This document shows positions 6,701-29,081 of a stretch of 48,633 nucleotides of DNA, in pieces. Position numbers and translations under genes: made by a program. The DNA is from Mustelus asterias (Eukaryota). A model generated the notes under the pieces. That model was not told where the DNA came from. It saw only the letters and a program-made list of their open reading frames with translations, and ran no database searches. Positions within the stretch are counted from its first letter, which is position 1. Every line of letters begins with the position of its first letter. Where the stretch lies: positions 1,612,001-1,660,633 of the forward strand of contig NC_135823.1 in assembly GCF_964213995.1 (NCBI RefSeq). Reading direction: 5' to 3'.

Positions 6701-6755
6701 ATGGCGAAAGGCTCATTAGCTGTGATGCTCATTTTCCAAGTACTACGGTTTCACT
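6701..6755 (+). pseudogene. Gene A leader exon (MAKGSLAVMLIFQVLRFH)
   Basis: ATG in aagATGg context, hydrophobic 18 codons plus 1 nt, donor T|GTGAGT; phase 1 matches the V acceptor at 7332. Confidence 0.8.
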
Positions 6756-7331
6756 GTGAGTAAGAGACGGGAGGGAATTTTAAGCAAAATCACTTTTATA
6801 AATCAGAAGGAGAGTTTTCTAAGCTGAAAACGTGAGCCAGTGATCAGGTGAAGGAATTTGACCTGATCATTTACTGCTTCCACCCATAAAGCGAAGAAGA
6901 TATAAACTGAATACTAAATTTAAAAAACAATGATGACAAATAATAATGAGGTTGAGCGGTGGTGCAACAGTGGTTAGCACTGCTGCCTCACTGCACCAGG
7001 GACTGAGTTCAAATTCCCGGCTTGCACCACTGCCTGTGCGGGTCGACACGTTCTCCCGTTGTCTGTGTGGGTTTATTGCTGGTGCCCACAGTTCGAAAGA
7101 CGTGCTGGTTTTGTGCATTGGCCATGCTACATTATTCCTCGGTGTGCCCGAACAGGCGCCGAAGTGTGGCGCCTGGGGGATTTTCACCATAGCTTCATTG
7201 CGGTGTTAATGTAAACCTGCTTGTGACAGTAATGGATAAACTACAAGTTTTAAATACAGGCGCGGATTTATTTTTAAGAGACCGCTTCAGATATTTCAAA
7301 ATCCGTGGTAATGTAACAATAATCTTTCTAG

Positions 7332-7664
7332 TTAGAGAATCCGAGTCCTCTCTGTCTCAAATCCCCTTCACAATGACAGCTGAAGTTGGCCATACGGTGG
7401 AATTGTCCTATTATGAGACTTCTGAAGTGTATTTGGTTTCTTACTGTGCTTGGTACAAACAGCGTTTGGGTGAAGCCCCGATACGAATAAACGCTGCATC
7501 TTGTATTGGGGCCGACTGCAAATATATTTCTGAAAAAGGCAACCCAGCAAATGCATTGATTCTGAGAATTCGCAATGTCCAGACGAATGACTCGGGTTCA
7601 TACTACTGTTTCGATCTTGCTGGGGCAGCACCGTTCCGGAATGGACACACACTCATGGTTGGAG
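7332..7664 (+). pseudogene. Gene A germline-joined V-J exon
   Basis: ctttctag| acceptor; SLSQ...VGHTVELSY...WYKQRLGEAP...LRIRNVQTNDSGSYYC...PFRNGHTLMV; donor GAG|GTAAGA. V-set motifs and a J-like G strand lie in one exon. Confidence 0.92.
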
Positions 7665-7752
7665 GTAAGAGAGCAAGTGTACTTAATTCAGATTGTGCAC
7701 GGCATTAGCATTTTATGTAAATTAATCATTAACTTTGTGCCCATCTGTCCAG

Positions 7753-8081
7753 ACAGTTCCACCACGAAGACGGCTGTGCTGGTATTTATCCCTCCGGGTG
7801 AGCTGGATTTGAATGATACCGTGCCCTTTGTGTGTTTGGTCAGTGGAGTTTCTTCCAACCAGATTGCTATTTTCTGGAATATTTCCGTCCAGGTCATGAG
7901 GGATCGAGTGATCCCGGGATAATGGAAGAAGACGGGACCTACAGCATCAGAACTCATGTCATGGTGTCGGCGGACATTTGGAGAAGCGGCGCTGTCTGTG
8001 CTTGCATTGTTCAACTGGGAATTCCAGGGAAATACTGGACAAAGCGTGTGTCGTTCTCCAAAGCAGAAGAGACTGGAACAA
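7753..8081 (+). pseudogene. Gene A C1-set exon (frameshifted near 7896)
   Basis: ctgtccag| acceptor; VLVFIPP...VPFVCLVSG...IFWNIS, then after a 1-nt shift GIMEEDGTYSIRTHVMVSADIWRSGAVCACIVQ; donor A|GTGAGT. The V-C intron is 88 bp. Confidence 0.92.
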
Positions 8082-9659
8082 GTGAGTTGTTAATTTCCAC
8101 AATGGTGGTTTGAATTCAACTCCTAATCAATTGGGACAATGCACCAGATACTATGACACTGAAGACTCTGAATTGACTGGTAGGAGCCTCCAATTTAAAC
8201 TACGTTACCCCTATAACTTGACCGAGGGGAATTTCACAGTAACTTCATTGCAGTTTTAATGTAAGCCGTCTTGTGACTCTAAATAATAAACTTCAAACTT
8301 TAAACATTTCCCCTTCAAGTCACAATGTGGGCCGTACGGTGGCACAGAGTTTAGCACTGCTGCCTCACAGCGCCATGTACCATAGCTCAATTCCAGGCTT
8401 GGGTTACTATCAGTGCAGAGTCTGCACGTTCTCCCCGACTCTGCGTGGGTTTCCTCCGGGTGCTCCGGCTTCCTCCAGCAGTCCGAAAAACGTGTTGTCC
8501 AGATGCATTTGTTATTCTAATTTGTACTACAGTGTACCTGAACAGGCGCTGGAGTGTGACGTTTAGGGGATTTTCACATTAATTCCATTGCTGTGTTAAT
8601 CTAAGCCTACTTGTTATACCACTCAATAAACTTAAGCTCCTCTGTTTTCCCTGTTGAAAGTTACTATTGAATATGCTTGGACCGCCTTTTTCAGACAATG
8701 GATTTTGGAATTGAATTGGGGTAAGTCCTTCCGTGGATGCACTTTGCGTTCAGAAAACAAACAAGAGGTTTTTATTCTGAGGCATGAGCTCAATTTCCCA
8801 GAATCTCACTTCACAATCCTTAGTTTCCATGTGGTAACTGTTTAATTTTTAATTACTAATACCTGCAATCCAATCTCAGGAGCTAAAGCTTCACAGTAGT
8901 TGGATTTTAGATTATTTTACGCTGTTTGATCCAGCGATCTGGACCACGTCTGCAAGGTCAATGGAAGCAAATATAACAATACATTTCACAACTGGAATTG
9001 CATGTGGACTCGGCGGTGAGAAATGTGCAGTGTTGTGAGGGAAAAATAGGCATAGTACCACTATTTCAATAGATCTTTCAAAGACACAGCGAGGACGCTG
9101 TGGGCCTGTATGATTATATGATTCAGTTTTCAAATGAGTGTTGGCGTGATGCTTTTATCATGCAACCTGACACACTATGAATGTGGAACTATCCTGTCAG
9201 GGCTGTCTGATTCTTGATCCCTACTCGCAAGAATAATGCAGTTCATACCACCCTGTTCATTCACGGGTTGCTAGCAATTCCATATGTTGTTTATTTTTAT
9301 TTCACTCCCGAGTTTAAGGTTGCCACTTTTCAACTGTTTTAAAATATATTCGTGTGGCACAGGGGTCGCTGGCGACGCCAGCCTTTATTTCCCATTCTTA
9401 GCTGCTTTTGAGAAGATGGTGGTGAGTTGCATTCTTAAAACTCTCCAGTCCATGTCCTGTGGGGTGACCTGCAGAGCTGTTCGGGAGGAAATTCTAGAAT
9501 CTTTACCGAGCGACTGCGAAGGAATGGCCGATATATTTCCAAGTAAGTATACTGAGTGGCTAGGGGGGGAACTTGCAGGTGGCTGTGCTCCCAGGTATCT
9601 GCTGACCTTGTCCTTCTAGATGTAATGATCGTCGGTTTGGAAGGTGCTGTCACCACGGC

Positions 9660-12600
9660 ACCGTGGTACAGGGAACCGTTCAAGTAGGGGGAGAAAAAAG
9701 AAATGTAGTCCTAATTGAGGATAGTATTGTTAGGGACATGGACACTGATCTCTGTGACCAGGATCGAGAAACCTGAAGGTTGTGTTGCCTGCCTGGTGCT
9801 CGGGTTCGCGATACCTCATCTGGGCTGCAGAGGAACTTGGAGTGGGAGGGCAAAGACCCCAGTTGTCGTGGTCCATTGAGTTACCAATGACATAGGTAAG
9901 AACAAGGACAACGTTTCTGCTTAGGGAGCATGAACATCTAGGAGCTAAACTAAAAGCAGAACCAAAAAGTTAATAATCTCTGGATTACTACCTGAGCCAC
10001 AAACTAATTGGCACAGGGTCAATAAGATTAAGGAGGTAAATGCGTGGCTCAAAGATTGGACGGGAAAGAATGGGTTTGAATTCATGGGATATAAACACCA
10101 GTATTGGGGAAGAGGGTACCTGTTCCGATGGCATTGTCTTCATCTGAATTGTGCTGGGACGAGATTCCTGGCGATTCGTATAACTAGGACTGAAGATAGG
10201 GCTTTAAACTAAATGGAACGGGAGGATGGTTCAGATGTATAGAGAATTAAAAAATCGAAGTTAAAGGACAGGATGGAAGGGCAGGTTAATGGAGCTGAGG
10301 GCTCAGGAGAGGTTAGTAAACTTTCCAGACCACGTAAAGAACAAAGAGTATAGAAAGTGGCAGGAATCTACTCACAGGCAGAGCAAGAAAGGTGGCAAGT
10401 ACGCGAAGGGAGGTGACCAATGCAGGACTGAGGGTCGTGTACCTAAATCCGTGCAGTATACGAAACATGGTAAATGAGCTTGTTGCACACATTGAAATTG
10501 GCTGGCACGATGTTGTGGGCATCACAGAGGCGTGGCTGCAAGGGGATCAGGGCTGGGATCTAAATATCCAAGGATATGTGTCCTAATCAAAGATCAGGAG
10601 GATGGGCAAAGTGTGCTGGGTTGCATTGTTTGTAAGGAATGAAGTTAAATCTATAGCAAGAAGTGACATACTGCTGTACTTCTATACTTCTATAAGGTAT
10701 CCCAAGGGCGGCACGGTAGCACAGTGGTTAGCACTGCTGCTTCACCGCTCCAGGGACCTGGGTTCGATTGCCGGCTTGGGTCACTGTCTGTGTGGAGTTT
10801 GCACATTCTCCTCGTGTCTGCGTGGATTTCCTGCGGGTGCTCCGGTTTCCTCCCACAGTCTAAGAATGTGTGGGTTAGGTTGATTGTTCATGCTAAAATT
10901 GACCTTTGTGTCCTGGGATGCGTAGGTTAGACGGATTAGTGGGTAAATATGTAGGGATATGGGGGTAGGGCCTGGGTGGGATTGTGGTCTTTGCAGACGC
11001 GATGAGCCGAATGGCCTCTTTCTGTGCTGTAGGGTTTCTAAGATTTCTAAGAAGAGCATCAGAAAGCATAAATTCTGAGGGGATAGAGTTGAGGAATCGC
11101 AAAGGTAAAAATTCCCTCATGGGAGTTATGTACAGGTCCACTAGCAGTAGTCAGGATTTGGGGCAGAAAGTAATTCAGGCCATAGAAAAGGCATATAATA
11201 ATGGCAATATTACACTAATCATGAGGGACTTCAATATGCAGGTGGACTGGGAAAATCGGGCAAGTAGTGGATCACAAGAAAATGAATTTGTGAAATGTCT
11301 GAGAGATTTTGTTTGGAGCAGCTTGTGACAGAGCCTACTAGGGGACAGGCAATTCTAGATTTGGTGATACGTAATGAGGCATATTTGATTAGGGAACTTA
11401 CGGTAAAGGAAACCTTAGGGAGCAGTGACCACAATATGATAGATTTTACCCTGCAGTTTGAGCGAGATAAGCTGGAGTCACATGTAACGGTATTGCAATT
11501 AAATAAAGGTAACTAAAAGCACATAAATGAGGAATGGCGAGAGTAGTTTGGAAAGGGAGCCCAGCAGGGAAGACAGTGGAATTGCTATGGCAAGAGTTTT
11601 TGAGAGTTATTCGGGAGTCACAACACAAATTCCTCCCAAGGAAGAGGAAACATGTCTCGGGAGGGCGAGGCATCCATGGCTGCCGAGGGGAGCCAAGGAC
11701 AGCATAAATGCAAAAGAAAAAGCATACGAAGTGGCAAGGATTATTGGAAAGCCAGAGGATTGCGAAGCCTTTAAAAGCGAGTAGAGGACAACTAAGAAAA
11801 GCAATAAAAGGGGGGAAGATGAAATATGAGTGTACGTTATCTAATAATGTAGAAGATGATAGGAAGAGTGATTTTTTTCAATCTATAAAAGGTAAGAGAG
11901 AGGCAAAAAGAGACACTGGACCATTGGAAAATGAGGCTGGAGAAGTAATAATAGGAAACAAAGCAATGGCAGAAGAACTGAATAGTTACTTTGCATCAGT
12001 CTTCACGGTGGAAGGCACCACTGGGATGCCAGAGCTCCAGGAGAGTCAGGGACCACAGGTGAGTGTAGTGATCATCACTAAGGTGAAGGTTCTGGGGAAA
12101 CTGAAAGGTGTGAAGGTGGATAAATAGCCTGGACCGGATGGACTATACACCAGGGTTCTAAAGCTGATAGCTGAGGAAATTGTGGAGGCATTAGTGGTGA
12201 CCTTTCAGGAAGCAATGGAGGCATGGAGTTTACCAGAGGATAGGAAAGTGTAATACCGCTGTTTAAGAAGGGAGGCAGGCAGCAGACAGGATATTATAGG
12301 CCGGTTAGCCTGACTTCGGTCATTGGCAAGATTTTAGCGTCCATTATTAAAGATGAGATCGCAGAGTATTTGGAAGTGCATGATAAAGTAAGACTGAGCC
12401 TGCACGGCTTCGTCAAAGGGAGGTCATGTCTAACAAGTCTGTTAGAGTCCTTTGACGAGCTAACAAGGAAGTTAGATCAAGGAGAACCAGTGGACCTGAT
12501 TTGTTTCGATTTCCAGAAGCCCTTTGACAAGGTGCCGCATAGGCGACTGTTAAATAAGTTAAGTGCCCATGGTGATAAGGGAAAGATTCTGGCATGGGCA

Positions 12601-13742
12601 GAGGGTTGGCTGACTGGCAGAAGGCAGAAAGTGGGGATAAAGCGGTATTTTTCAAAATGGCAGCCGGTGACTAGTGGTGTGCCTCAGGAGTCAGTGCTGG
12701 GACCACAACTTTTCACAATACACATTAACGATTTGGAGGAAGGATCTGAAGTCACTGTTGCTAAGTTTGCAGATCATACAAAGTTATGTAGAGGGACAGG
12801 TAATATTGAGGATGCAGGGGGACTGCAGAAGGACTTGGACAGGTTAGGAGAGTGGGCAAAGAAGTTGCAGATGTATTACAATGTGGAAAAGTGTGAGGTT
12901 ATGCACTTTGGAAGGAGGAATGGATGCATAGACTATTTCCTAAATGGGAAAATGCTTATGAAATCAGAAACAGAATGGGACTTGGGAGTCATTGTTCAAG
13001 ACTATCTCGTGTTTAAGTGCAGATTCAATCGGTAGTTAGGAAGGCAAATGCAATGTTAGCATTCATGTCGAGAGGGCTAGAATACAAGAGCAAGGATGTA
13101 CTTCTGAGGATCTATAAGGGTCTGGTCAGAACCCATTTGGAGTATTGTGAGCAGTTTTTGGCCCCATATCAAAGGAAGGATGTGCTGGCCTTGGAAAGGG
13201 TCAAGAGGAGGTTCACAAGTATGATCCCTGGAATGAAGAGCATGTCGTCTGAGGAACGGTTGAGGACTCTGGTTCTGTACTCATTGGAGTTTAGAAGGAT
13301 GACGGGGTGGGTGGCGGGGTGTGGGGGGAGGGGGATCTTATTGAAACTTACTGGATACTGCGAGGCCTGGAAAGAGTGGCCGTGGAGAGGAAGTTTCTAG
13401 TAGGAAAAACTGGAACCAGAGAGCACAACTTCAGGCTAATGGGCCATCCTTTAAAACAGAGATGAGCAGCAATTTCTTCAGCTGGAGAGTGGCGAATCTC
13501 TGGAACTCTTTGCCGAAGAATGCTGTGGAGGCCAAGTCATTGAGTGTCTTTAAGACAGAGATAGATAGTTTCTTGTTTAATAAGGGGATCAGTGGTTATG
13601 GGGAAAAGGGAGAAGAATGGGGATGAGAAAAATATCAACCATAATTGAATGGCGGAGCAGACACGATGGAACGACACATGGAACGAGAGGCATAATTCTG
13701 CTCCTATGTCTTATGGTCTTATGGTCTTGTGGTCTTATGGTC
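9660..13742 (+). mobile_element. Near full-length degenerate CR1 LINE (ORF1 esterase plus ORF2 APE-RT) in the gene A C1-TM intron
   Basis: APE motifs (VVGITEAW, DFN, SDHN), RT motifs (FDKVPH, SGVPQESVLGP, KFADHTK) and a (TCTTATGG)n tail at about 13708-13742; SINE nested at about 10706-11050. Confidence 0.95.
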
Positions 13743-13744
13743 TG

Positions 13745-14080
13745 TCCAACTATCTTTGGTGAATTGATGCAGTGCATCTAATAAATGGTGCACATTGCTG
13801 CTTCTGAACGTTCAGTGGTGCACGGAGTGGATGTGGTGCCAAACAAGCGGGCTCCTTTGTCCTGGATGGTATCAAGCTTCTTGAGTGTTTTTTGGAGCTG
13901 CACCCAACAAGGCAAGTGGGGAGTAATCTATCACAATTCTGAATTGTGTTTTGCAGATAGTGGACAGGTTTTGGGGAGTCAGGTGGTGAGTTCCTTCGCA
14001 GGATTCCCAGCCACGAAATTGCACTTGTAGCCATCGTGCTTAAGTGGAGGATTCTGTCATGGTAAAACCATTGAATCTCA
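13745..14080 (-). mobile_element. L2-like LINE fragment
   Basis: Degenerate RT C-terminal-like translation; family assignment is tentative. Confidence 0.45.
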
Positions 14081-14174
14081 CGGGGTTACTCTGCCTGCGT
14101 TCCGTTTGACATCCTTGAAGCCCAGAAAAAATGATTTGACCCAGCAACAGTTTCGATTTTTTTTCCCTCTGCAG

Positions 14175-14602
14175 GATGGTGCACTCTGGAACATCCCACT
14201 GTCATAACTGTCCTGGTGATGCCGATTCTACTCTGGATGTTTCTTTCCATTTGAGAACATAAGAACATAAGAAATAGGAGCAGGAGTAAGCCATCTAGCC
14301 ACTCGAGCTTGCCACGCCATTCAATAAGATCATGGCTGATCTGAAGTGAATCAGTTCCACTTACCCGCCTGTTCCCCATAACCCTTAATTCCCCTACCGA
14401 TCAGAAATCCATTTATCCGTGACTTAAACATATTCAACGAGGTCGCCTCCACCACTTCAGTGGGCAGAGAATTCCAGAGATTCACCACCCTCTGAGAGAA
14501 GAAGTTCCTCCTCACCGCTGTCCTAAACTGACCCCCCCTTTATTTTGAGGCTGTGCCCTCGAGTTCTGGTTTCCGTTTGGATTTGGAAGAAAGGCAGAAC
14601 AG
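14175..14602 (+). pseudogene. Gene A transmembrane exon interrupted by a CR1 fragment
   Basis: tttccctctgcag| acceptor; RWCTLEHPTVITVLVMPILLWMFLS(I/V) [insertion 14254-14569] WIWKKGRT; donor CAG|GTAAGG, phase 1 at both ends. Confidence 0.8.
14254..14569 (-). mobile_element. 5'-truncated CR1 3' end inserted in the gene A TM exon
   Basis: (AGAACATA)n tail and CR1 3' UTR; flanked by TTTCCATTTG (14244-14253) and TTTCCGTTTG (14570-14579). Confidence 0.88.
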
Positions 14603-14699
14603 GTAAGGAATAATTTTCAGGAGGGATAATATCACGATTGTTCATCCAATGTGATTCTCCTCGTAGTTTTGTATTGCTCATCGTACTGTCTTCTTTCAG

Positions 14700-14730
14700 A
14701 AGAGCGAGTTAAGGGAGCCTGCAAAGAAAG
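14700..14730 (+). pseudogene. Gene A candidate first cytoplasmic exon (EERVKGACKE)
   Basis: tcttctttcag| phase-1 acceptor 97 bp after the TM donor; possible GC donor AAG|GCGAGT, otherwise the frame reads through to a stop at 14878. Confidence 0.5.
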
Positions 14731-15669
14731 GCGAGTAACTGAGCCATTTATAAAATTCGTCTCAAATACTACCTCTGTATTAAACTGTATTCACCCCAGT
14801 TCAACATCACCACGGATGCAAATGCTATATGTCGAAACCTTCCATAATTTAACGTTGAATATCCTTTCTTTCAAATAATTCTGGCTTTTCGGCCAGGACT
14901 TGCCCGATGTAACACTTGCTTAATTCTTTTTATTTCCTTATCCAGTTTTAGCTTGAGAGAGACAGCACACAGAGGGGGGCGGACAGACGGACAAACAGGT
15001 TGATGGTCACCAAATTGTGGAATTGAACACGGCTCCCTGGCGCTGTGAGGCAGCAGTTCCACGCAGTGCTAAAATGGAAGAAGCTGAGTGTACTTCCAGC
15101 CATCAAATTGTACCTTAATTAATCCCCTGTTAGTCCCATTGAAAAGTATACATGTTGTATTCAAATGTTGGCACCGATTCAATATCATTGAACAAACATA
15201 TAGAATCCTTACAGTGCAGAAGGAGGCCATTCGGCCAATCTTGCCTACAATGCCAACAATTCCAGCCAGGCCCTAACCCCGTAACCCCTGATGCTAACGG
15301 GCAAATGACACATCCTTTTACACTAAGGGGCAATTGCGAATGGCCAATCCAACTTACCTACAAATGTTTGGGCAAATGTTTGGGCATATAATTATACATG
15401 TTTGAGGAACTTCTTCACACAAAGTGTTGTGAATCAGTGGAATTCTCTGCCCAGTGAAGCATTTGAGGCTACCTCATTCAATGTTTTTAAGGCAAGTATA
15501 GATGCATTTTTGAACAGTGAAGTAATTAAGGGTTATGGTGAGCGGGCGGGTAAGTGGAGCTGAGTCCACAAAAACATCAGCCATGATCTGATTGAATGGC
15601 GGAGCAGGCTCGACGGGCCTGATGGCCTACTCCTGCTCCTATGCTCTTACGTTCTTATTTAGAGCCAGT

Positions 15670-15970
15670 ATAGCTTGGCCTGTTCACCTACACTACTCAT
15701 CTTTGGACACTAAGGGACAATTCAGCATGGCCAATCCATCTAAACTGCACATCTTCGGAGACTAAGGGGCAATTCAGCATGATCAATCCACCTAACTTGC
15801 ACATCTTTGGACACTAAGGAGAAGTTCAGCATGGTCAATCCCAATCCACTAAACTGCACATCTTTTCACAGTAAGGTTGAATTCGGCATGGCCAATCCAT
15901 ATAACCTGCTCATATTTTAGCAGTCAGGGGCAATTACCTTGGCTAATTCACCTAATCTGCACATCTTTTG
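15670..15970. repeat. About 52-bp minisatellite from a SINE internal segment (also 27420-27665, 32590-32830, 37230-37550, 46590-46770, 47180-47380)
   Basis: Tandem units of ggacactaaggggcaatttagcatggccaatccacctaacctgcacatcttt. Confidence 0.9.
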
Positions 15971-17049
15971 ACCGTGGGAGGAAACTGGAAAACGCAAAGG
16001 AAACCAGAGCACTCAGAGGAAACCCACGCAGATACAGAGAAGAAGTGAAAGTTCCACACAGAGAGTCACCTAATTGTGGAATTGAACACGGCTCCCTGGC
16101 GCTGTGAGGCAGCAGTTCCACGCAGTGCTAAAATGGAAGAGATTGAGTGTACTTCCAGCAATCAAATTGTTCCATAATTAATCCCCTGTTAGTCCCATTG
16201 AAAAGTATACATGTTGACCATCAATTCTGGCACTGAAATATCTCTAGTGCAATAGACGGCAGGTGGGATAGAAATGCCTTGTCCATCCATTGGTGGATTG
16301 GGATCCATTGAAGTATTATTTGACAGTTGATGTTCTGAGGGACCGGTTATGTATTAGAACAACACTGGTGGATGTGGAGCGGCTTCTTTGGATTGACACC
16401 CATTGAGACGTTAGGCCAATTGATGTATTGGTGCAACAGGGCATCATTTGAGTACTATGTCTCAAATTAATCATAGCTTAGCTGGAACAGGATTAGATTT
16501 ATATTACCATCTTCCACTTTGTTACACAGAATATCGCCAAACATATTGAATGGGAACACAAGACGGTGCAGTTCAGGTAATTGTTTTGCAAATATTTTAA
16601 TACTGTGCAGAACATTTCTGGGTTTTGGAATAAGGTGCAGGATGTCCCATGTTGGATATTTCACGCGGCTGTCAGAGAGCAGCTCACTGTCTGAAGCATC
16701 TAAATGTGAATCAAATCACATTTGTCCACACACTGGCGTCAGAACATGTCCCTCTGCGGCTCTTCCAACTGATTATACAGCGATTGAGTGAATGTTCCGG
16801 TTGGAAAATCTCTGTCAGATGTTTCTGCAGGTTTCCTGAAGTTTCATTTGCAGATTGGCAGCTTTCTGTTATTTTTCACTTTCTTTTTCTCCGCGGAGAA
16901 TCCAGTTGTCCCTCAAGTAACTCCGAGTTTCCTCCAATCTGCTCACACTTGGAAATGAATTAATTGCTGGAATTACGATGTCCAAAGCCATGGTAGTTTT
17001 TTATCGAGAAATCAACAGATGTGTTGTGTTGTAAATACACAGAGAAGGT

Positions 17050-17590
17050 TTGTATGTGTGTGTGTTTGTTTCTGTGTGAGATTCTCTGTCTTCTTTCGAT
17101 ATGAGTCAGTGTGAGATTGTGTATGTGTGTGTGTGTGTGAGAGAGAGAGATTCTTTGTGTATCTCTCTGTATGTGTCGGTGGGAGATTGTGGTTTTGTGT
17201 GTGAGTGAGAGAAATTATTGGTCTGTGCAGCTGTCAATATGTGTCGGTGTGGATTGTGTGTTGTGTGTGTGTGTGTGTGTTTGTGTGAGTGTGTGTACCT
17301 GTGTGCTGTGTGAGTTTTCGTGTGTACCTGAGAGAGAGGGAGAGAGACTGAGAGGGCGAGAGACTGTCTGTTTGAGGGAGAACATGTATGAGTGAACGTG
17401 TGTGTGAATATATGTGTATCTTCCTTTGTGACTCTGTGTGTCTATCTGTGTGTGAGGCAGTGTTTGTAAGAGTGTCTCTGTGTGTGTATGTGTGTGTGTG
17501 TGTGTGAGTCTGTGTTTGCATGTGTAAGTGTGTCTGAGTCTGTGTGCTTGGGAGTGAGAATGATTCTGAGTGCGTGCGTGTGGTGCAGTG
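17050..17590. repeat. Compound (TG)n/(GA)n low-complexity tract
   Basis: Direct inspection. Confidence 0.95.
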
Positions 17591-17640
17591 TTCTGTTCGA
17601 TATTTACTCCCTCAACAAACATCTAAAAATGCAACAATGT

Positions 17641-20600
17641 ATAGAACATAGAACAGAGAACAGTACAGCACAGAACAGGCCCTTCGGCCCACGATGTTGT
17701 GCCGAGCTTTATCTGAAACCAAGATCAAGCTATCCCACTCCCTATCTTCCTGGTGTGCTCCATGTGCTTATCCAATAACCGCTTAAATGTTCCTAAAGTG
17801 TCTGACTCCACTATCACTGCAGGCAGTCCATTCCACACCCCAACCACTCCCTGCGTAAAGAACCTACATCTGATATACTTCCTGTATCTCCCACCACGAA
17901 CCCTATAGTTATGCCCCCTTGTAATAGCTCCATCCACCCGAGGAAATAGTCTTTGAACGTTCACACAATCTATCCCCTTCATCATTTTATAAACCTCTAT
18001 TAAGTCTCCCCTCAGCCTCCTCCGCTCCAGAGAGAACAGCCCTAGCTCCCTCAACCTTTCCTCATAAGACCTACCCTCCAAACCAGGCAGCATCCTGGTC
18101 AATCGCCTCTGCACTCTTTCCAGCGCTTCCACATCCTTCTTATAGTGAGGTGACCAGAACGGCACACAATATTCCAAATGTGGTCGCACCAAAGTCCTGT
18201 AGAGTTGCAGCATAACCCCACGGCTCTTAAACTCCAAGCCCCTGTTAATAAAAGCTAACACACTATAAGCCTTCTTCATAGCTCTATCCACTTGAGTGGC
18301 AACCTTTAGAGATCTGTGGATATGGACCCTAAGATCTCTCTGTTCCTCAACAGTCTTCAGAACCCTACCTTTGACCCTGTAATCCACATTTAAATTAGTC
18401 CTACCAAAATGAATCACCTCACATTTATCAGGGTTAAACACGATTTGCCATTTTTCAGCCCAGCTTTGCATCCTATCTATGTCTCTTTGCAGCCTACAAC
18501 AGCCCTCCACCTCATCCACTACTCCACCAATCTTGGTGGCATCAGCAAATTTACTGATCCACCCTTCAGCCCCCTCCTCTAAGTCATTAATAAAAATCAC
18601 AAAGAGCAGAGGACCAAGCACTGATCCCTGCGGCACTCCGCTAGCAACCTGCCTCCAATCCGAAAATTTTCCATCGACCACCACCCTCTGTCTTCGATCA
18701 GACAGCCAGTTACCTATCCAATCGGCCAACTTTCCCTCTATCCCACACATCCTCATTTTCATCATAAGCCGACCATGGGGGACCTTATCAAACGCCTTAC
18801 TAAATTCCATGTATATGACATCAACTGCCCTACCTTCATCAACACACTTAGTTACCTCCTCAAGAAATTCTATCAAATTTCTGAGGCACGACTTGCCCTT
18901 CACGAATCCGTGCTGAACATCCAGGATTAATCCGCATCTTTCTAAATGGTCGTAAATCCCATCTCTAAGGACCTTTTCCATTAATTTACCAACCACCGAA
19001 GTAAGACTAACAGGTCTATAATTACCAGGGTCATTTCTATTCCCTTTCTTAAACAGAGGAACAACATTCGCCATTCTCCAGTCCTCTGACACCGTCCCCG
19101 TGGACAGCGAGGACCCAAAGATCAAAGCCAAAGGCTCTGCAATCTCATCCCTTGCCGCCCAAAGAATCCGAGGATATATTTAATCAGGCCCAGCGTACTT
19201 ATCGACCTTCGGTTTATTCAAAGCTGCCAGGACATCCTCCCTCCGAACATCTATTTCATCCAACCTATTAGCCTGTAACACCTTCTCTTCCTCAAAAACA
19301 TGGCCCCTCTCTTTGGTGAACACTGAAGAAAAGTATTCATTCATCATCTCGCCTATCTCTACTGACTCCATACACAAGTTCCCACTACTGTCCTTGACCG
19401 GCCCTAACCTCACACTGGTCATTCTTTTATTCCTCACATAAGAGTTAGAAGCCTTGGGGTTTTCCTTGATCCGACCCGCCAGGGACTTCTCGTGTCCCCT
19501 CCTCGCTCTCCTAAGCCCATTTTTCAGCTCATTGTTTGCTCACTTGTAACCCTCAATCGAGCCATCTGAACCTTGTTTCCTCATCCCTACATAAGCTTCA
19601 CTCTTCCTTTTCACAAGACATTCCACCTCTTTCGTGAACCATGGTTCCCTCACTCTGCCATTTCCTCCCTGCCTGACAGGGACATACCTATCCAGTATTT
19701 GTTCCTTGAAAAATTTCCACTTTTCATTAGTTCCTTTCTCTGACAGTTTCTGTTCCCAACTTATGCCCCCTAATTCTTGCCTAATCGTATCATAATTACC
19801 TCTCCCCCAATTGTAAACCTGACCCTGCCGTACGGCCCTATCCCTCTCCATTGCAATAACAAAAGACACCGAATTGTGGTCACTATCTCCAAAGTGCTCT
19901 CCCACAACCAAATCTGACACTTGGCCCGGTTCATTTCCCAGTACCAAATCCAACGTGGCCTCACCTCTTGTCGGCCTATCCACATAGTGCGTCAGGAAAC
20001 CCTCCTGCACACACTGCACAAAAACTGCCCCATCAGAACTATTTGACCTACAAAGGTTCCAATCAATATTTGGAAAGTTAAAGTCCCCCATGACAACTAC
20101 CCTGTGACCCCCACACTTATCCATAATCTGCTTAGCAATTTCTTCCTCCACATCTCTATTACTATCCGGGGGCCTATAGTAAACTCCTAACAACGTGACC
20201 GCTCCTTTCCTATTTCTAACCTCAGCCCATATTACCTCAGTGTGCAGATCCCCCTCGAAGTGCCTTTCCGCAGCCGTTAAAATATCCTTGATTAACAGTG
20301 CCACTCCTCCACCTCTTTTACCAGCTTCCCTACACTTAGTGAAACATGTATACCCCGGAACGTCCAACAACCATTCCTGTCCTTGTTCTACCCACGTCTC
20401 CGTAATGGCCACAACATCGTAGTCCCAAGTACCAATCCACGCCCCAAGTTCATCTACCTTGTTCCGGATGCTCTTTGCATTGAAGTAGACACACTTCAAC
20501 CCACCTTCCTGTCTACCGGTACCCACCCTTGACCCTGATACCTTCCCCAATACCTCAGCACTCTCACTGACTTCTGGACTACAACTCCTTTTCCCACTCC

Positions 20601-20773
20601 CCTGACAAATTAGTTTAAACCCCCCTGAAGAGCCGTAACAAATTTCCCTCCTAGGATATTGGTGCCCCTCTGGTTCAGGTGCACCCCGTCCTGTTTGTAC
20701 AGGTCCCACCTTCCCCAGAATGTGTTCCAGTTATCCACGTATCTGAAACCCTCCCTCCTACAGCATCCCTGCA
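17641..20773 (-). mobile_element. Relatively young CR1/HER1 LINE (end of ORF1 plus ORF2)
   Basis: 389-aa APE-containing and 468-aa RT-containing ORFs (VAITETW, GDFNFP, SDHN, GVPQGSVLGP, FADATK) and an (ATAGAAC)n tail. Confidence 0.97.
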
Positions 20774-22849
20774 ACTAATTTAACTGGGTCATTAATTACA
20801 TTTTCCTTCTTGGATCATACTGTTTCAAAAGGCGCAGCCACATTTACCACCTGAAATTCGATGAATACAATTTCAACAAGTGGCGGTCAACGATGAGGTG
20901 TTCAAACAAGAAAGATACAAGTAAATGCAAACTGGCTGGTGTTTGAAATTAGCTGTTTGGTTTGATGGTGGAAATTTTAATTACCTATAAAAGGGACCTG
21001 AATCTACATGTAAAATGCTGTAACGTACACGGCTACAGATTGGGTGCTGGGCAGCGGGATTGGAATAGACAGCGAGCTTTCGGGCTGGCACAAACATGAT
21101 GGGGAATGGCCTCCTTTTCTGCCATATCTGTCCTGTGGTTCAATGCCGCCAAGACATTTGATTGCGTGTGGCTATTGTGATTACATGTGAGTGATTTGCC
21201 GAAACACAAGGATAATCGGCGGCACGGTGGCACATTGGTTAACACGGCTGCTTCACAGCGCCAGGAACCCGAGTTCAATTCCTTGGATTGGTGTCTCTGT
21301 AGAGTTTGCATGTTCTCACCTTCTCTGTGTGGGTTTCCTCCGGGTGCACCTGTTCCCTCCCAAGTGTAGTTTATACGGTCACTCAGTATCCCAAGTTGTG
21401 TAGGTTAGATGGATTAGCCATGATAAATGTGTTCGGTTACAGGAATAGGGTGGGGGAGAGGGTTTGGGTCAGATTAATTGTCAGATAGTCCATACAGTCT
21501 CGATGGGATGAATGGTCTCAGTCTGCACTGTCGGGATTCTATGATTCTGAAGGGGCTTGAGAGGATAAACGCTGAGACGCTGTTCAGCGAACCTTGAACA
21601 TAACACACGGAGAAACATGTTAATTGGATTGTCTGTTTAACAGAAATCGAATTGACAGACTCAACACCAGTTTTCTGAATAAATGTTAGTGACGCCTTTG
21701 TTAAGCCGCTTTCCAAATTTTGCTTCTCTGTCACGACGTTATTTCAGTCAATTTCAGCTTATAGGCGTTGGGACGTTAAGCATTTTCAAGGCTGAGATGG
21801 ACAGCTTCTTAATCAGTAAGGGAATAAAGGGTTATGGGAATAAGGCGGGAAAGTGGACTTGACGACTGTCATATCAGCACAGTCATGAACTCATTGAATG
21901 GCGGAGCAGACTCGATGGGCTGAATGGCCTACTTCTGCTCCTGTCTCTTATGGCCTTACTATGTTACAGTCTAACTCTTCCATTGGCAATTTCCAATTGA
22001 GATAGAGGCCAATGGATGCAGATTCAATCGCCACTTTCAAAAAGGAATCGGATAACTACTTGTTGCAAAGAACAGAGCTGAGCATTATGCAGAAAGTTAA
22101 AGTGAAGGTTGGTCTTAAGGAGAGGCGATGGTCTAGTTGTCTTCGCGCGAGACTATTAATGCAGATACTCAGCTAATGTTCCAGGGAGCCGAGTTCGAAT
22201 CCCGAAAGGCAGATGGTTGAATTTTTATTCAACGAAACAACATCTGGAATTAATTATCTCCTAATGACCATGAAACCGTTGTCAGGAAAAAATCCATCTG
22301 TTTCACTTCTCTTCTTTCGGGAAGGAAATCTGCCATTCTGAACTGGTCTGGCCGACACGTAACTCCAGATCCACAGCAATGTGATTGACTCTCAACTGCC
22401 TTCTGAACAAGGACAACTCGGAATGGGCGAAGTCCATGTCCCAAAAATGAATTAAAAAATGGATAGCTCTTTCAAAGATCCAACACGGATTCAATGGGCT
22501 GGTTAGGCTCCTTCTAATTTGTGCCATGCTATGATTTTATGTCACGCGTTTGAGGTTGAGGGTAATCTTAACTATATATGGGCCGAAAGGCCTCCCTGAG
22601 CACTGGCGGGCTTCTATGATTCACTATGATGTATCTATGATTTGTGAATATTTCAGAGTGGACCTGTCTCCGCCTCCCTGTTTTTGGCCGCTTTGGAAAA
22701 GAGTTCGAAAAAGAAGGCAGGTCGAAAATGAGAGTTAGAATGATGAATTCTGGAGCAGGCAGGATGACCCGAGAATCCCACAGCATCAATGAAGTAAACA
22801 TGGTTCCAAGGAGTCTCATCTCAAACAGCTGAACTTTCCCCGTGCATTC

Positions 22850-23980
22850 GTCATAGGGAGGTTAGTTAGGAAGGTTCAGTCGCTGGGTATACATGGGGAG
22901 GTAGTAAATTGGATAAGACACTGGCTCAATGGAAGAAGCCAGAGAGTGGTTGTGGAGGATTGCTTCTCTGAGTGGAGGCCTGTGACTAGTGGTGTGCCGC
23001 AGGGATCGGTGTTGGGTCCATTGTTGTTTGTCATCTATATCAATGATCTGGATGATAATGTGGTAAATTGGATCAGCAAGTTTGCTGATGATACAAAGAT
23101 TGGAGGTGTAGTGGACAGTGAGGAAGGTTTTCAAAGCTTGCAGAGGGATTTGGACCAACTAGAAAAATGGGCTCAAAAATGACAAATGGAATTTAACGCA
23201 GACAAGTGTGAGATATTGCACTTTGGAAGGACAAACCAAAGTAGAACGTACAGCGTAAATGGTAGGACTCTGAAGAGTGCAGTTGAACAGAGGGATCTGG
23301 GAAAACAGGTACAGAATTCCCTAAAAGTGACGTCACAGGTGGATAGGGTCGTAAAGAGGGCCTTTGGTAAATTGGCCTTTATAATTCGGAGTATCGAGTA
23401 TAAAAGTTGGAGTGTTATGGTAAGGTTATATAAGGCATTGGTGAGGCCGAATTTGGAGTATTGTGTACAGTTTTGGTCACCTAGTTACAGGAAGGATGTA
23501 AATAAGATTGAAATAGTGCAGAGAAGGTTCACAAGGATGTTGCCGGGACTTGAGAAGCTGAGTTACAGAGAGACATTGAATAGGTTGGGTCTTTATTCCC
23601 TGGAGCGTAGAAGATTGAGGGGAGATTTGATAGAGGTGTATAAGATTTTGATGGGTATAGATAGAGTGAATGCAAGCAGGCTTTTTCCGCTGAGGCTAGG
23701 GGAAAAAAAAAACAGAGGTCATGGGTTATGGGTGAAAGGAGAAAAGTTTCAAGGGAATATTAGGGGGGGCTTCTTCACGCAGAGAGTGGTGGGAGTGTGG
23801 AATGAGCTGCCAGATAAAGTGGTAAATGCATTTAAGAAAAACTTGGACGGGTTCATGGACGAGAGGGGTTTGGAGGGAAATGGTCCAAGTGCAGGTCAGT
23901 GGGACTAGGCATAAAATGGTTCGGCACAGACAAGAAGGGCCAAAAGGCCTGTTTCTGAGCTGTAATTTTCTATGGTTCTA
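22850..23980 (+). mobile_element. 5'-truncated CR1 LINE (RT C-terminal half)
   Basis: SGVPQGSVLGP, KFADDTK, LVRPNLEYC and a TTCTATGG tail. Confidence 0.95.
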
Positions 23981-24414
23981 CCCACCGCCTCGGAAAAGCA
24001 GCCAGTATAATCACGGACCAGATGCACCCTGGACATACTATCTTCCAACTTCTTCTGTCAGGAAAAAAATTACAAAGGTCTGAGGTCATGGACCAACCGA
24101 ATCAAGAACAGCTTATTCACTGCTGCCATCAGACGTTTGAATGGACTTACATCGCATTCAGTTGATCTTTCTCCACAGCCTAGCTATGACTGTAGCATTG
24201 CATTCTGCAGTCTCTCCTTTCCTTCTCTATGAATGGTATGCTTTGTCTGTATAGCGCTCAAGAAGCAATAATTTTCCCTGTATCCTAATACATGTGACAA
24301 TCATAAACCAAGTCAAATAGAATTTTCTGTGTCCTTTATGAATTTTAAAACCTGGATAAAAAAAATAATGAAAAGTCTCCGTGTGGTATAGCCACAATAA
24401 TTCCATTCATTCAC

Positions 24415-24473
24415 CTCTTTATTCTGTTTGTGTTGCCTGGATTCTGTCAGTTCGTCATCACTGTTCGCGGTTC
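24415..24473 (-). pseudogene. Gene B first cytoplasmic exon (GTANSDDELTESRQHKQNKE)
   Basis: ctctttctaacag| phase-1 acceptor 139 bp after the TM donor, open frame, donor GAG|GTGAAT (phase 0). Confidence 0.7.
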
Positions 24474-24612
24474 CTGTTAGAAAGAGTAATTTAAACTGAA
24501 ATTTAAAATGGCTACATTTCACACCGAACCCGCTCAGAAGTGTCAATAACTCAGTGATAAATGAGTGGATTGAGAGCGCCGCGGAGTAACAGCGTCCCAC
24601 AACAATCGCTAC

Positions 24613-24731
24613 CTCTCTGCCGGTTCCTGCAGATCCTTCTTCCGGCCACAAGAACCAATCCTAGAAGGAGAAGCGCCGCGGCCGACAAACCCCCGAAAAC
24701 AGTAAATTACAGGTGGTCGGGAACGGAGAAT
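24613..24731 (-). pseudogene. Gene B transmembrane exon (1-nt frameshift)
   Basis: ttctttttgcag| acceptor; DSPFPTTCNLLF / GGLSAAALLLLGLVLVAG RRICRNRQR; donor GAG|GTAGCG. Confidence 0.82.
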
Positions 24732-26582
24732 CTGCAAAAAGAATTAAACTTTCACTCAAATAAAATCGATTGTGGAAATAATCAAACAAGCGAAGGATTT
24801 TGTCAAATATGTCTCTCCAATTTGACCGGAAAATGGCAAAAGATTTTGCATACTTTTCCATCATGTATGAGAGTAGCACTTTTCCAATAGAACACAGGGA
24901 GAGCTGGAGCGCGATTGTCACAGAGAGACTGAGCACTTTTTGAATAGGGCGCACACAGAGAAAGAGAGAGAGAGTGAAAGTTTCAGGGAGAGAGTAGTCA
25001 TTGAATCCCGCAGTGCAGAACGAGACCATTCAGCCCATCGAGTCTGCACTGACAACAATCCCACGCTATCCACGTAAACCCACGTACTTATCCTGCTTAT
25101 CCCCCTGACACTCTGGTCAATTTAGAATGGCCAATCAACGAACATATCTTTGGACTGTGGGAGGAAACTTTATCCTGGGGAGGCAGTGGCCTCGTGGTAT
25201 TATCACCAAGACTAGTAATACAGAAACTCAGCGAATGTTCTGGGGACACGAGTTCGAATCCCGCCACAGCAGATGGTGGAATTCGAATTCAATTTTAAAA
25301 ATATCTGGAATTAAGAATTTACTGATGACCATGAAACCATTGTCGATGGGGGCGGCACGGTAGGACAGTGGGTAGCACTGTGGCTTCACAGCTCCAGGGA
25401 CCTGGGTTCGATTCCCGGCTTGGGTCACTGTCTGTGTGGAGTTTGCACATTCTACCCGTGTCTGCGTGGGTTTCCTCCACGTGCTCCGGTTTCCTCCCAC
25501 AGTCCAAAGATGTGCGGGTTAGGTTGATTGGCCATGCTAAAAATTGCCCCTTAGTGTCCTGAGATGTGTCGGTTACAGGGATTAGCAGGGTAAATGTGTA
25601 GGGATATGGGGGTAGGGCCTGGGTGGGATTGTGGGCGGTGCAGACTCGATGGGCCAAATGGCCACTTTCTGCACAGTAGGGTTTTTATGATTCTATGAAA
25701 CCGATTCACCGGAGGAAACCCACGTATTCACGGGGAGAATGTGCAAACTCCACAGACAGATATGGGAGGCCAGAATTGAACACTGGCAGCTTAGAAACTT
25801 AGAAACCCTACAGCACACAAAGAGGCCATTCGGCCCATCGAGTCTGCACCGACCACAATCCCACCCAGGCCCTACCCCCATATCCCTGCATATTTATCCA
25901 CTAATCCCTCTAACCTACGCATCCCAGGACACTCAGGGCAATTTTTTAGCATGGCCAATCAACCTAACCCGCACATCTTTGGACTGTGGCAGGAAACCGG
26001 AGCACCCGGAGGAAACCCACGCAGACACGAGGAGAATGTGCAAACTCCACACAGACAGTGACCCAAGCCGGGAATCGAACCCAGGTCCCTGGAGCTGTGA
26101 AGCAGCAGTGCTAACCACTGTGCAACCGTGCCGCCCAGCTGGCGCAGTGAGGCGTCAGTGCTAACGACTGTGCCACCGTGCTGCCCAACCGAGAGATTTC
26201 AAATAGAACTTTTCCAATAGGACACTGGGAGAGGTAGGGAGATACAGTGACAGAGAGAAAGAGGGAGAGAGTGAAAGATTCAGGGAGGAGTAAGAACTAA
26301 GATGTTACAAAGCACAGTTTAAACAACAGAGAAATAAAGCACAAGATAGAATCATAGAGTCATAAAGGTTTACAGCATGGAAACAGGCCCTTCGGCCCAA
26401 CTGCCCCTTTCTAAAATCACTAAGCCAGTCCTATTTGCCCGCGTTTGACCCATATCCCTCTGCAGCCATCTTACCCATGTAACTTTCTAAACGCATTTTA
26501 AAGGACAAAATTGTACCCGCCTCTGATACTACTTCTGGGAGCCTGTTCCAGACAGTCACCATCCTCTGTGTGAAAAACTTCC

Positions 26583-26826
26583 TAGTAAGAAGTTTAACAA
26601 CACCAGGTTAAAGTCCAACAGGTTTATTTGGTAGCAAAAGCCACACAAGCTTTCGAGGCTCTGAGCCCCTTCTTCAGGTGAGTGGGAATTCTCACCTGAA
26701 GAAGGGGCTCAGAGCCTCGAAAGCTTGTGTGGCTTTTGCTACCAAATAAACCTGTTGGACTTTAACCTGGTGTTGTTAAACTTCTTACTGTGTTTACCCC
26801 AGTCCAACGCCGGCATCTCCACATCA
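26583..26826. mobile_element. Recent palindromic insertion (Penelope-like inverted terminal repeat) with a 12-bp TSD
   Basis: Perfect 99-bp inverted arms 26584-26682 and 26691-26789 with an 8-nt loop; TGAAAAACTTCC at 26571-26582 and 26827-26838. Confidence 0.85.
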
Positions 26827-28354
26827 TGAAAAACTTCCCCCAGATATATTGACCGAATAAATGATTCAAAGTTAGAGCATCAATCTGATGGAGCACTGTT
26901 CAAACAAGACAAGAGACGAAGAGATAGGCAGAGCAAATAACTTACACAGCATTATTCTGCTCGATTTCCAATGATGAAACGTGGAGAGAGGTTTCGAGAA
27001 AGAGAAAAAAAGAAGATAACAAAGTAGATAATGCAGAGAGAGATGGGTACACAGTTAGATGGAGCACCATGGAACTAACATCAAAAATACTAACGCTGGA
27101 GAATACTAGATAAACCAACAAATAGAGGGAGAGACAGAGACAGGGAAGGAGGGAGGGAGATCAACAGCTGAAGGTAGAGTGAGAGTGAAAGAGATGCAAA
27201 CAGTGTGTTAGGAGAGACTGACCGAGAAAGCTGCACCAGGGTAAAATGCAGGATTGATAGAGAGAAGGGGAGGGAAGGGAGGTTAACAGGGGAAGATAAA
27301 CAACTGGACAAATCGTAAAATCGCGACAGTGCACACAGGTCTAGTCGGCCCATCGAGCAAGCACGACAACAGTGCCACCCAGGGCCCAACAAATGAGCCC
27401 AAATTTATACCCTGACAGTTTAGCATGGTTAATTCACCTAACCCACACACCTTTGGACAGGAAAAGGGAATTTAGCATGGCCAATCCACATAACTTGCAT
27501 GTCTTTGGACACTAAGGGGTAATTGAGCATGGCTAATCGACATAACCTGCACATCTTTGGACACTAAGAGGCAATTTAGCGTGGCCAATCCACTTGACCC
27601 GCACATCTTTGGATATTAAGGGGCAATTTCGCACGGCCAATCCACGTAACCTGCACATCTTTGGAGTGTGGGAGATAACCGCAGTACCTGGAGGAAACTC
27701 GCGCTGGCACGGGGAGAACATGCAAACTTCACATAGACAGTTACTCAAAGCCGGAATTGAACCCGGGTCACTGGAGCTGTGAGGCAGCAATGCTAAAGTG
27801 CCATTGCGCAGATAACTTGTAGTGCACGGTGCGATTGAAAGGGATTCAAGTAGAGAGAGATGAAGGGATAAATAAATGGTTCACCACCGTGCTGAGACGA
27901 AGTGCAACACTGAGGGTATAATCACACATTTCAGTTTGTCACACCGAACGAGTAGTCCCTGACCTTCAGAAATGTAACGGTGTCTTCGGCAGACACAAGA
28001 AGTGGGAGAGGGAAAGAGGCCATTCGGCCAATCCAGTCTACTCTGCCTTTCAATAACTCCATGGTTAACCGTGTACACAAACTTAACTTTCCCACCCTTA
28101 CCCTTTCATCTATCCGTTCTCACAAATGTACTGCAGCGATTGAACATCCACGGCTCTCTACGGCAGCGAAAAAGCGTTAAAGTGTAAGGAATCGAACCTC
28201 TGAACGATTGGGAGGGCTGTGATAGCACAGCGATGAATTGGACCTCCATGGAGAAACCCGCAGAGACATTGCAAATTTACAAAGTTTGACTGCTCTGAGT
28301 GAAGTGTCCCGTTAACGTCAAAGGCCTTGAAAAAGCATCATTGTGAATAGCTAC

Positions 28355-28653
28355 CTCTCTGAGATGAGACACTTTCAATGAGAATACTTTCAACGGAGTT
28401 GACCTGAACGGCGCAAATACAGTGAGTGCCACTTCGCCAAGTTTCCACCGAGAGGCTGATGCAACTCCTGATGGTGTAGGTCCCGTCTGGCTCCAGCATC
28501 CCCGAATGGGTCTGTGCCTCGGTATCCCGCCCCGGACCGGAAAGGAATCGGGAGACACGCCTCTGACCAAACACAACAATGGGACCCTTTCCATGGCAGG
28601 AAACTCATCCAGGGGCGGGGTGAGGAGGAATATGGTGGGAGAACCCGCTAAAT
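28355..28653 (-). pseudogene. Gene B C1-set exon
   Basis: PTIFLLTPP...VPLLCLVRGVSP, then a deletion removing the C-strand Trp with frameshift, then GMLEPDGTYTIRSCISLSVETWRSGTHCICAVQ; donor GAG|GTAGCT. The V-C intron is 94 bp with a mutated acceptor (ccgg|at). Confidence 0.9.
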
Positions 28654-28747
28654 CCGGCAAATGAAACAGAGAACCCATTAACAGGTTGAACAGGACACTT
28701 TAATTGCTTTGAGATATGCACTGCAATGGAATAATCATGGAATTTAC

Positions 28748-29081
28748 CCGTGATCACTAACTTGGAGCCGTTTCCAAATATTCTGGCCATGTTTTGATAA
28801 TTGAGGATTGCAGAGTAATACATCCCAGATTCATTTTTCTGGGAATCCGCAACGATTAGTGAATAAATGCCCGCTTTTTCAGAAATCTCGCTGGAAAACC
28901 TCCCCTCAGTTCGACTGTTCTGGAACGCTGTGTAAACCAAAGCCATATCGTTTCTCTCCCTCTGTCTGTACCAGTGGAGATAGCTAGTAGCTTGACCCTT
29001 GGACACGAAACCTGAGATGAACAAGACTCCCGGCAGGGAGCGTCTGAACCGGCGGAGACTGGGACAAGGTGGCCTGAGACA
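28748..29081 (-). pseudogene. Gene B germline-joined V-J exon
   Basis: (ct)n-cttacag| acceptor; SQATLSQSPPVQTLPAGSLVHLRFRVQGS / frameshift / ATSYLHWYRQ...GRFS...YSLIVADSQKNESGMYYSA...IFGNGSKLVIT; donor G|GTAAAT. Confidence 0.92.

What the first reader, a model, noticed from the sequence alone, without database searches (positions are those of the whole stretch)
7753..28653. Shared non-canonical C1 signature (CxCxVQ) defines a family
GIMEEDGTYSIRTHVMVSADIWRSGAVCACIVQ (A) and GMLEPDGTYTIRSCISLSVETWRSGTHCICAVQ (B) align without gaps. Both replace the canonical C1 F-strand YxCxVxH with CxCxVQ, and both have VP(F/L)xCLVxGVS in the B strand. The same extra Cys in two otherwise divergent paralogs suggests an ancestral feature rather than decay, possibly an extra disulfide.
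Basis: partly seen in the sequence, partly recalled or inferred. Interest (0 to 1): 0.7.

Follow-up and report, generated by a model that had tools for sequence, protein, structure and literature searches.

The report
Cysteine mark of shark immune receptors
Two broken shark genes share an unusual extra cysteine because both belong to a cluster of about 50 antibody-shaped receptor genes that carry no sign of rearranging; the cysteine is an old family mark, also seen in rays, sturgeon and lungfish, and likely sits buried and unpaired rather than forming an extra bridge.

Summary
The motif is real, and it does mark a family. A (+) and B (-) are pseudogene copies of two subfamilies in a cluster of about 50 shark genes on G000:C23. 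The intact genes read leader, one-exon VJ, short intron, C1, stalk Cys, membrane segment, ITIM-like tail. The Cys two residues before the F-strand Cys is in 43 of 50 scored genome copies and 76 of 77 distinct database C1 domains (sharks, rays, sturgeon, lungfish). Controls have it in 4 of 377 other C1 domains and 0 of 20 from this genome. Decay from Tyr is refuted. Three corrections: the Q fills the variable +3 position and the His at +4 is lost to L/I/V; the proposed regex finds only 3 of 77; and an extra disulfide has no partner inside the domain (three Cys in 67 of 77). Phe replaces the Cys in two apparently intact genes that keep their stalk Cys, so a buried free thiol is most likely. The family works like PRARP/VJC1, but membership could not be tested. 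A useful marker for a poorly annotated receptor family, not a new mechanism.

The parts
6701..6755 (+). Gene A leader exon (split leader, phase 1)
   Evidence: tblastn of homolog N-termini; ATG and GT donor
7332..7664 (+). Gene A one-exon VJ domain; B-strand Cys replaced by Tyr; degenerate J-like end
   Evidence: no RSS found in the locus
7665..7752 (+). Gene A short VJ-C1 intron (88 nt, GT-AG)
7753..8081 (+). Gene A C1 exon, frameshifted by a 1-nt deletion near 7896
   Evidence: pairwise alignment to 10 paralogs, all show the gap; Pfam C1-set for intact paralogs
7997..8005 (+). Gene A C-x-C: extra Cys (TGT, 7997-7999) and canonical F-strand Cys (8003-8005)
   Evidence: covered without difference by a public-run contig
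14175..14602 (+). Gene A stalk-Cys and membrane exon, split by an insertion of about 310 nt (repeat-like, about 14255-14560)
14700..15000 (+). Gene A two short cytoplasmic exons (about 14700-14735 and 14946-15000)
22657..22731 (+). Gene A last exon; the ITIM-like LYASL of relatives reads VSASL (Tyr lost)
28748..29081 (-). Gene B one-exon VJ domain ending FGNGSKLVIT; 1-nt insertion near 29001; both canonical Cys lost
   Evidence: insertion and second Cys loss covered without difference by public-run contigs
28648..28747 (-). Gene B short VJ-C1 intron (100 nt, GT-AG)
28355..28647 (-). Gene B C1 exon with a 13-nt deletion near 28535 that removes the C-strand Trp
   Evidence: alignment to 9 paralogs, all show the gap
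28413..28421 (-). Gene B C-x-C: extra Cys (TGT, 28421-28419) and canonical F-strand Cys (28415-28413)
24613..24731 (-). Gene B stalk-Cys and membrane exon, frameshifted
24415..24473 (-). Gene B cytoplasmic exon; its leader and last (ITIM-like) exon were not found in the window

Best explanation
The C-x-C is an inherited family mark of the C1 domain of a shark cluster of VJ-C1 membrane-receptor genes without recombination signals, and the extra Cys is likely a buried, unpaired residue standing where other C1 domains have Tyr or Phe. Shown: gene layout, family size, conservation, and that both window copies are broken. Inferred: the extra Cys points into the core on the same face as the canonical F-strand Cys (beta-strand alternation, established knowledge), the canonical B-F disulfide forms as usual, and the stalk Cys links two chains. 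Intact members would act as disulfide-linked germline receptors on leukocytes, most inhibitory through a Tyr motif in the tail and a minority activating through a membrane Arg, probably as A-B pairs.
For: Family: 54 matches to the A stretch, nearly all on C23; 51 C1 exons found (26 A, 25 B). Cys at -2: 43 of 50 scored copies, none Tyr, both TGT and TGC used; 76 of 77 distinct database domains against 4 of 377, including proteins labelled lungfish and sturgeon. Tree: A, B, lungfish and sturgeon C1 on one branch (SH-aLRT 96) apart from 26 Ig, TCR-like and MHC controls; A and B each hold sharks and rays. No partner: three Cys in C1 in 67 of 77. Phe is tolerated there in P0206 and in the C23:3.229 Mb gene, and both keep the stalk Cys. 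The C1 model is an ordinary C1 fold (pLDDT 84; best Z 13.6, rmsd 2.5, 103 aligned) with residue 79 opening strand 79-84. Stalk Cys in 63 of 63 models with a membrane segment, ITIM-like motif in 45 of 63. No RSS near the V exon in 23 of 24 loci; one off-spacing match in L012. A and B alternate along the cluster: 31 switches of 45, 23 expected, p = 0.012.
Against: Burial and the free thiol were not measured: the structure tool gave no coordinates. The extra Cys is as conserved as the canonical ones (76 of 77 each), which is more than a neutral core filler needs. C1 plus stalk hold four Cys, an even number that also fits an intrachain bond. The tree is a quick search on 109 columns, midpoint-rooted. 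One sturgeon-labelled protein in the clade, P0129 (long branch), has Ile at -2 and was left out of both counts. Only 14 of 43 neighbour pairs were A-B in opposite orientation, so one-to-one pairing is not strict. No expression data.
Confidence: 0.68

Rival explanations
1. The extra Cys forms an intrachain disulfide with the stalk Cys encoded at the start of the membrane exon, clamping the base of C1 near the membrane.
For: Both Cys are near-invariant (76 of 77 and 63 of 63). C1 plus stalk give an even four Cys. The -2 position lies at the membrane-side end of strand F (Ig topology, own knowledge), and a small residue there leaves room.
Against: The stalk Cys stays when the -2 Cys is lost (P0206; C23:3.229 Mb gene). 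Its distance from strand G varies between members while it stays a few residues before the membrane segment. In the full-length model it starts the membrane helix after a low-confidence linker.
Confidence: 0.18
2. The extra Cys is a backup or swapping partner for the B-strand Cys, or pairs with a neighbouring Cys in some sublineages.
For: P0001 (= L017) lost the canonical F Cys (CTY) but kept the extra one. One B sublineage has Cys in place of the EF-helix Trp together with C-x-C (P0186, L138).
Against: One CTY case only, and its model has no Tyr motif in the tail. The same sublineage's C23:3.229 Mb gene has the EF Cys but Phe at -2. A register shift of two residues would be needed (inference).
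Confidence: 0.1
3. The Cys arose twice by TAT to TGT decay in two pseudogenes.
For: Both window copies are decayed.
Against: 19 of 22 copies with open V and C1 exons have the Cys and none has Tyr; 76 of 77 database domains have it.
Confidence: 0.01

Closest known systems
PRARP (Fu et al. 2019) and Xenopus VJC1 genes (Ohta et al. 2019); titles seen in reference lists, texts not held, content recalled
   Same: Non-rearranging joined VJ exon, V-C1 layout outside birds, Tyr inhibitory motifs, disulfide-linked dimers, two related genes, members in bony fish (all recalled for PRARP; shown here for the shark family).
   Different: Here about 50 copies in two alternating subfamilies plus an Arg-membrane form, against a two-gene set (recalled). 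PMC10751288 lists PRARP among VJ genes in the MHC; this cluster is on C23 while all 140 MHC class I matches are on C8. No PRARP sequence was available to compare.
UrIg and UrIg2 (PMC12227049; abstract, Introduction, Results and most of the Discussion read)
   Same: Elasmobranch one-exon VJ with split leader followed by C1; dimers; UrIg2 C3 is among the tied best folds (Z 13.5, rmsd 1.9, 93 aligned).
   Different: UrIg has three and UrIg2 nine or more C1 domains and they are single genes in the MHC or the antigen-receptor complex; this family has one C1, a Tyr-motif tail and many copies.
Germline-joined shark Ig light chains and TCR chains
   Same: VJ plus one C1; best Foldseek matches of the full model are Fab light chains and TCR beta; light-chain-like C1 exons score highest among controls; databases auto-name the family 'light chain-like'.
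   Different: Intron of 88-100 nt between VJ and C1, membrane segment and Tyr-motif tail, no FYP loop, no His at +4, Cys at -2; separate clade.
Paired receptor families (SIRP, NITR, hagfish APAR; APAR recalled)
   Same: Clustered birth-and-death family with inhibitory-type and Arg-membrane forms; NITR has a joined VJ (PMC7916673 passages).
   Different: Domain layout is one VJ plus one C1; sequence kinship to these families was not shown.

Membership tests
Ig C1-set domain | Pfam C1-set match and ABED/CFG fold | tested here: met
   25 of 25 members match PF07654; model aligns to Ig constant domains at Z 13.6, rmsd 2.5, 103 residues
Ig C1-set domain | B-strand Cys, C-strand Trp, F-strand Cys | tested here: met
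   76, 77 and 76 of 77 family domains; the window's B copy has lost the Trp by deletion
Ig/TCR/MHC-type C1 | Y/F at -2, His at +4, FYP-type BC loop | tested here: not met
   Cys at -2 in 76 of 77, His at +4 not among the residues seen, BC loop L/V-S-S/P; 20 of 20 genome controls have His, 18 of 20 Y/F
PRARP / VJC1 | V and J-like segment in one exon, no RSS | tested here: met
   no RSS in 23 of 24 loci. Feature recalled.
PRARP / VJC1 | V-C1-membrane-tail with inhibitory Tyr motif | tested here: met
   ITIM-like motif in 45 of 63 models; one motif per tail here, two recalled for chicken
PRARP / VJC1 | Two linked subfamily genes in opposite orientation | tested here: inconclusive
   Window pair is tail-to-tail; an isolated pair at C23:3.23-3.27 Mb is head-to-head; 17 of 43 neighbours are tandem A-B. 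Feature recalled.
PRARP / VJC1 | Sequence orthology to chicken PRARP or Xenopus VJC1 | not testable with these tools
   No PRARP-labelled or tetrapod family member among listed hits; only 150 of 1065 hits are shown; papers not held
PRARP / VJC1 | Linkage to MHC or an MHC paralogous region | tested here: inconclusive
   MHC I on C8; PBX on C8, C13, C19 and small contigs; Notch on C8, C19 and a small contig; none on C23, but these markers do not cover all paralogous blocks
PRARP / VJC1 | Lymphocyte expression and disulfide-linked dimers | not testable with these tools
   No RNA holder listed; complex prediction unavailable
UrIg / UrIg2 | VJ followed by three or more C1 domains | tested here: not met
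   One C1 then stalk and membrane segment
Rearranging Ig / TCR | Split V and J with RSS | tested here: not met
Pre-T-cell receptor alpha | PTCRA profile match above cut-off; no V domain | tested here: not met
   3 of 25 members match weakly, best E 0.015, 14 bits against a cut-off of 23.1 for L019; V domain present

The most novel reading that the evidence does not exclude
The cluster is a germline two-chain receptor repertoire: about 50 A and B chains, older than the shark-ray split, pair like TCR chains into inhibitory or activating heterodimers. It is the expanded shark form of PRARP, and the C-x-C is a marker that traces this antigen-receptor-like lineage back to the last common ancestor of jawed vertebrates.
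Probability: 0.3. Interest if true: 0.75.

Novelty: new variant of a known kind. Interest (0 to 1): 0.45.

Why it matters
Non-rearranging VJ-C1 genes are sought as relatives of the gene that the RAG transposon split (PMC12227049, Introduction). Databases mislabel this family as Ig light or heavy chains, so one residue that separates it from true Ig and TCR constant domains (76 of 77 against 4 of 377) is a practical handle for finding members and testing orthology to PRARP. A large paired inhibitory/activating cluster would also be a candidate NK-type receptor system in sharks. The cysteine itself is probably a structural quirk, and the two window copies are dead.

Tried and rejected
Distance from the extra Cys to other Cys: no coordinates were returned. 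Expression: no RNA holder listed. Read check of the A deletion near 7896 and the B deletion near 28535: no laid contig bridges either. PRARP and VJC1 papers: Ohta 2019, Fu 2019, Flajnik 2023, Ott 2021 and Flajnik 2024 are not held. Nine library searches showed no description of this shark cluster or of the C-x-C; subscription journals are mostly missing and no supplements were read, so this does not show it is unpublished. Tetrapod members: none among listed hits; Atlas gave only auto-named Ig-like clusters. Pre-T-alpha kinship: weak profile match only, and not among the 50 fold rows. Synteny: 220 kb of flanks gave further family copies and GPCR-like frames but no anchor gene and no Ig light chain; none of the 150 scored C1-set matches of 793 candidates is on C23. 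B leader and last exon not found. Careful tree did not finish; quick tree used. Copy L139 not scored because the motif lies in Ns.

Full report
1. Observation. They align without gaps (70.4% over 98 nt). The extra Cys codons are TGT at 7997-7999 and 28421-28419. A contig of public run X2 covers the A motif without difference.

2. The two genes. Each C1 exon follows a one-exon VJ domain after a short GT-AG intron, 88 nt in A and 100 nt in B. A has a leader at 6701, a stalk-Cys and membrane exon at 14175, and tail exons up to 22731; B runs the other way with its membrane exon at 24731 and a tail exon at 24473, so the pair is tail-to-tail. Both are pseudogenes. A has a 1-nt deletion near 7896, Tyr for the first V Cys, an insertion of about 310 nt in the membrane exon and no Tyr in the tail motif. 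B has a 1-nt insertion near 29001, a 13-nt deletion near 28535, both V Cys lost and a frameshifted membrane exon. Contigs of runs X1 and X2 carry the B insertion and the second Cys loss unchanged; these runs may be the assembly's own sample, so they exclude assembly error but are not independent. The two C1 deletions were not bridged.

3. The family. The window is G000:C23:1612001-1660633. Searches of the genome found 51 related C1 exons, 26 A and 25 B: 46 between 0.08 and 1.71 Mb of C23, three near 3.1-3.3 Mb, and one each on C73 and C3499, which may be haplotype duplicates. Counts are lower bounds. A and B alternate more than chance (31 switches of 45, 23.0 expected, p = 0.012; the first run on 44 copies gave p = 0.004). 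Of the 50 scored, 22 have open V and C1 exons with canonical Cys. Database gene models give the whole protein: leader, VJ, C1, stalk Cys, membrane segment, tail. Stalk Cys is in 63 of 63 models with a membrane segment and an ITIM-like motif in 45 of 63. No RSS was found in 23 of 24 loci. Sources label relatives from eleven shark and eight ray genera, and single proteins from lungfish (P0179) and sturgeon (P0136). No chimaera or tetrapod member was among the listed hits. In a quick tree of 56 C1 domains, A (96), B (97) and the bony-fish domains share one branch (SH-aLRT 96) apart from 26 controls, and A and B each hold sharks and rays. So the A-B split predates sharks and rays, and the family likely predates bony fish.

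4. How good is the signature? Cys at -2: 42 of 47 copies, plus three copies found later (Phe; Trp and Cys), giving 43 of 50; exceptions are S, S, W, W, I, H, F, and none is Tyr. Both TGT and TGC occur. Among the 22 open copies 19 have it. In databases it is in 76 of 77 distinct family domains, the same count as each canonical Cys, against 4 of 377 other C1 domains and 0 of 20 C1 exons picked from other clusters of this genome. P0129, a sturgeon-labelled long branch inside the clade, has Ile and was in neither count. The rest of the signature is weaker: Q is in 55 of 77 and stands at the variable +3 position; the His at +4 is lost; the FYP loop is replaced; Pro at -3 of the B-strand Cys is in 64 of 77. 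The proposed regex finds 3 of 77; a relaxed pattern anchored on both Cys and the Trp finds 69 of 77 and 0 of 127 non-family proteins.

5. What the Cys does. The predicted C1 is an ordinary C1 fold (pLDDT 84; Z 13.6, rmsd 2.5, 103 aligned to Ig constant domains). By beta-strand alternation (established knowledge) the -2 side chain points into the core like the canonical Cys, where Tyr or Phe normally packs against the EF-helix Trp. An i, i+2 bond is strained (own knowledge), and 67 of 77 domains have no fourth Cys. The only conserved candidate partner is the stalk Cys. It stays when the -2 Cys is replaced by Phe (P0206; the C23:3.229 Mb gene), and it keeps its place relative to the membrane, as an interchain Cys would. 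I therefore favour a buried free thiol (0.68) over a bond to the stalk (0.18) or a backup bond (0.10). None of this was measured, and the very high conservation remains the best argument for a real role.

6. How the receptors likely work. By layout they would be disulfide-linked germline receptors with one inhibitory Tyr motif. A minority of A chains has an Arg at the start of or inside the membrane segment: 4 of 25 A membrane exons here, and P0033, P0036, P0045, P0049 from three other shark orders, whose models show no Tyr motif. These would be activating forms. A-B heterodimers are suggested by alternation and by a head-to-head pair at 3.23-3.27 Mb but are untested.

7. Known systems. The layout matches PRARP and Xenopus VJC1 as I recall them; I saw only their titles and one-line mentions (PMC10751288 passages and one Discussion section; PMC11599192 passages). 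Orthology could not be tested. The cluster is not on the MHC class I contig. It is not UrIg or UrIg2, which have several C1 domains (PMC12227049), not a rearranging locus, and not pre-T-alpha. Earlier scan notes on other shark genomes reached a similar reading; they are AI notes and count as leads only.

8. Verdict. Observation confirmed; ancestral mark confirmed; extra disulfide unlikely. The value is a diagnostic residue for a large, mislabelled, probably PRARP-related receptor family. Interest 0.45.

Noticed in passing
L071, L079, L080, L082 (C23:1.146, 0.904, 0.965 Mb; C3499): 4 of 25 A-type membrane exons carry Arg (SIVR...), a likely activating form; similar N-V-x-R forms without tail motif in P0033, P0036, P0045, P0049.
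   Followed up: partly
L123:8444-9999 and L108:7548-8324 (C23:3.229 and 3.268 Mb): Isolated head-to-head B-A pair 1.5 Mb from the main cluster. The B gene looks open in V, C1 and membrane exons but has Phe at -2 and Cys for the EF-helix Trp; P0186 and pseudogene L138 have the same Trp-to-Cys with C-x-C kept.
   Followed up: partly
window 7330-7664 and A-type relatives: A-type V domains carry an extra Cys pair (C-x-G-x-x-C) between strands C' and D, a better candidate for an extra disulfide than the C1 Cys.
   Followed up: no
L017 (C23:703 kb), P0001: Copy with the canonical F-strand Cys changed to Tyr and the extra Cys kept.
   Followed up: partly
window 48110-48165 (+): An A-type leader-like exon with GT donor; no V or C1 of A type was found in the next 20 kb.
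   Followed up: partly
L059:5429-9536 (C23:1.675-1.679 Mb, -): A further decayed B copy whose V exon is split by about 3 kb.
   Followed up: partly
L116:3996-4517, L120:7621-8601: Single-exon GPCR-like frames just beyond the cluster; identified by eye only.
   Followed up: no
window 15698-15972, 27419-27665, 32592-32824, 37211-37550, 46587-46774, 47180-47357: Arrays of a 52-nt repeat unit, likely a common shark SINE-associated repeat.
   Followed up: no
P0179, P0136: The lungfish model has two V domains before C1; the sturgeon model has two C1 domains, both with C-x-C; both may be gene-model artefacts.
   Followed up: no
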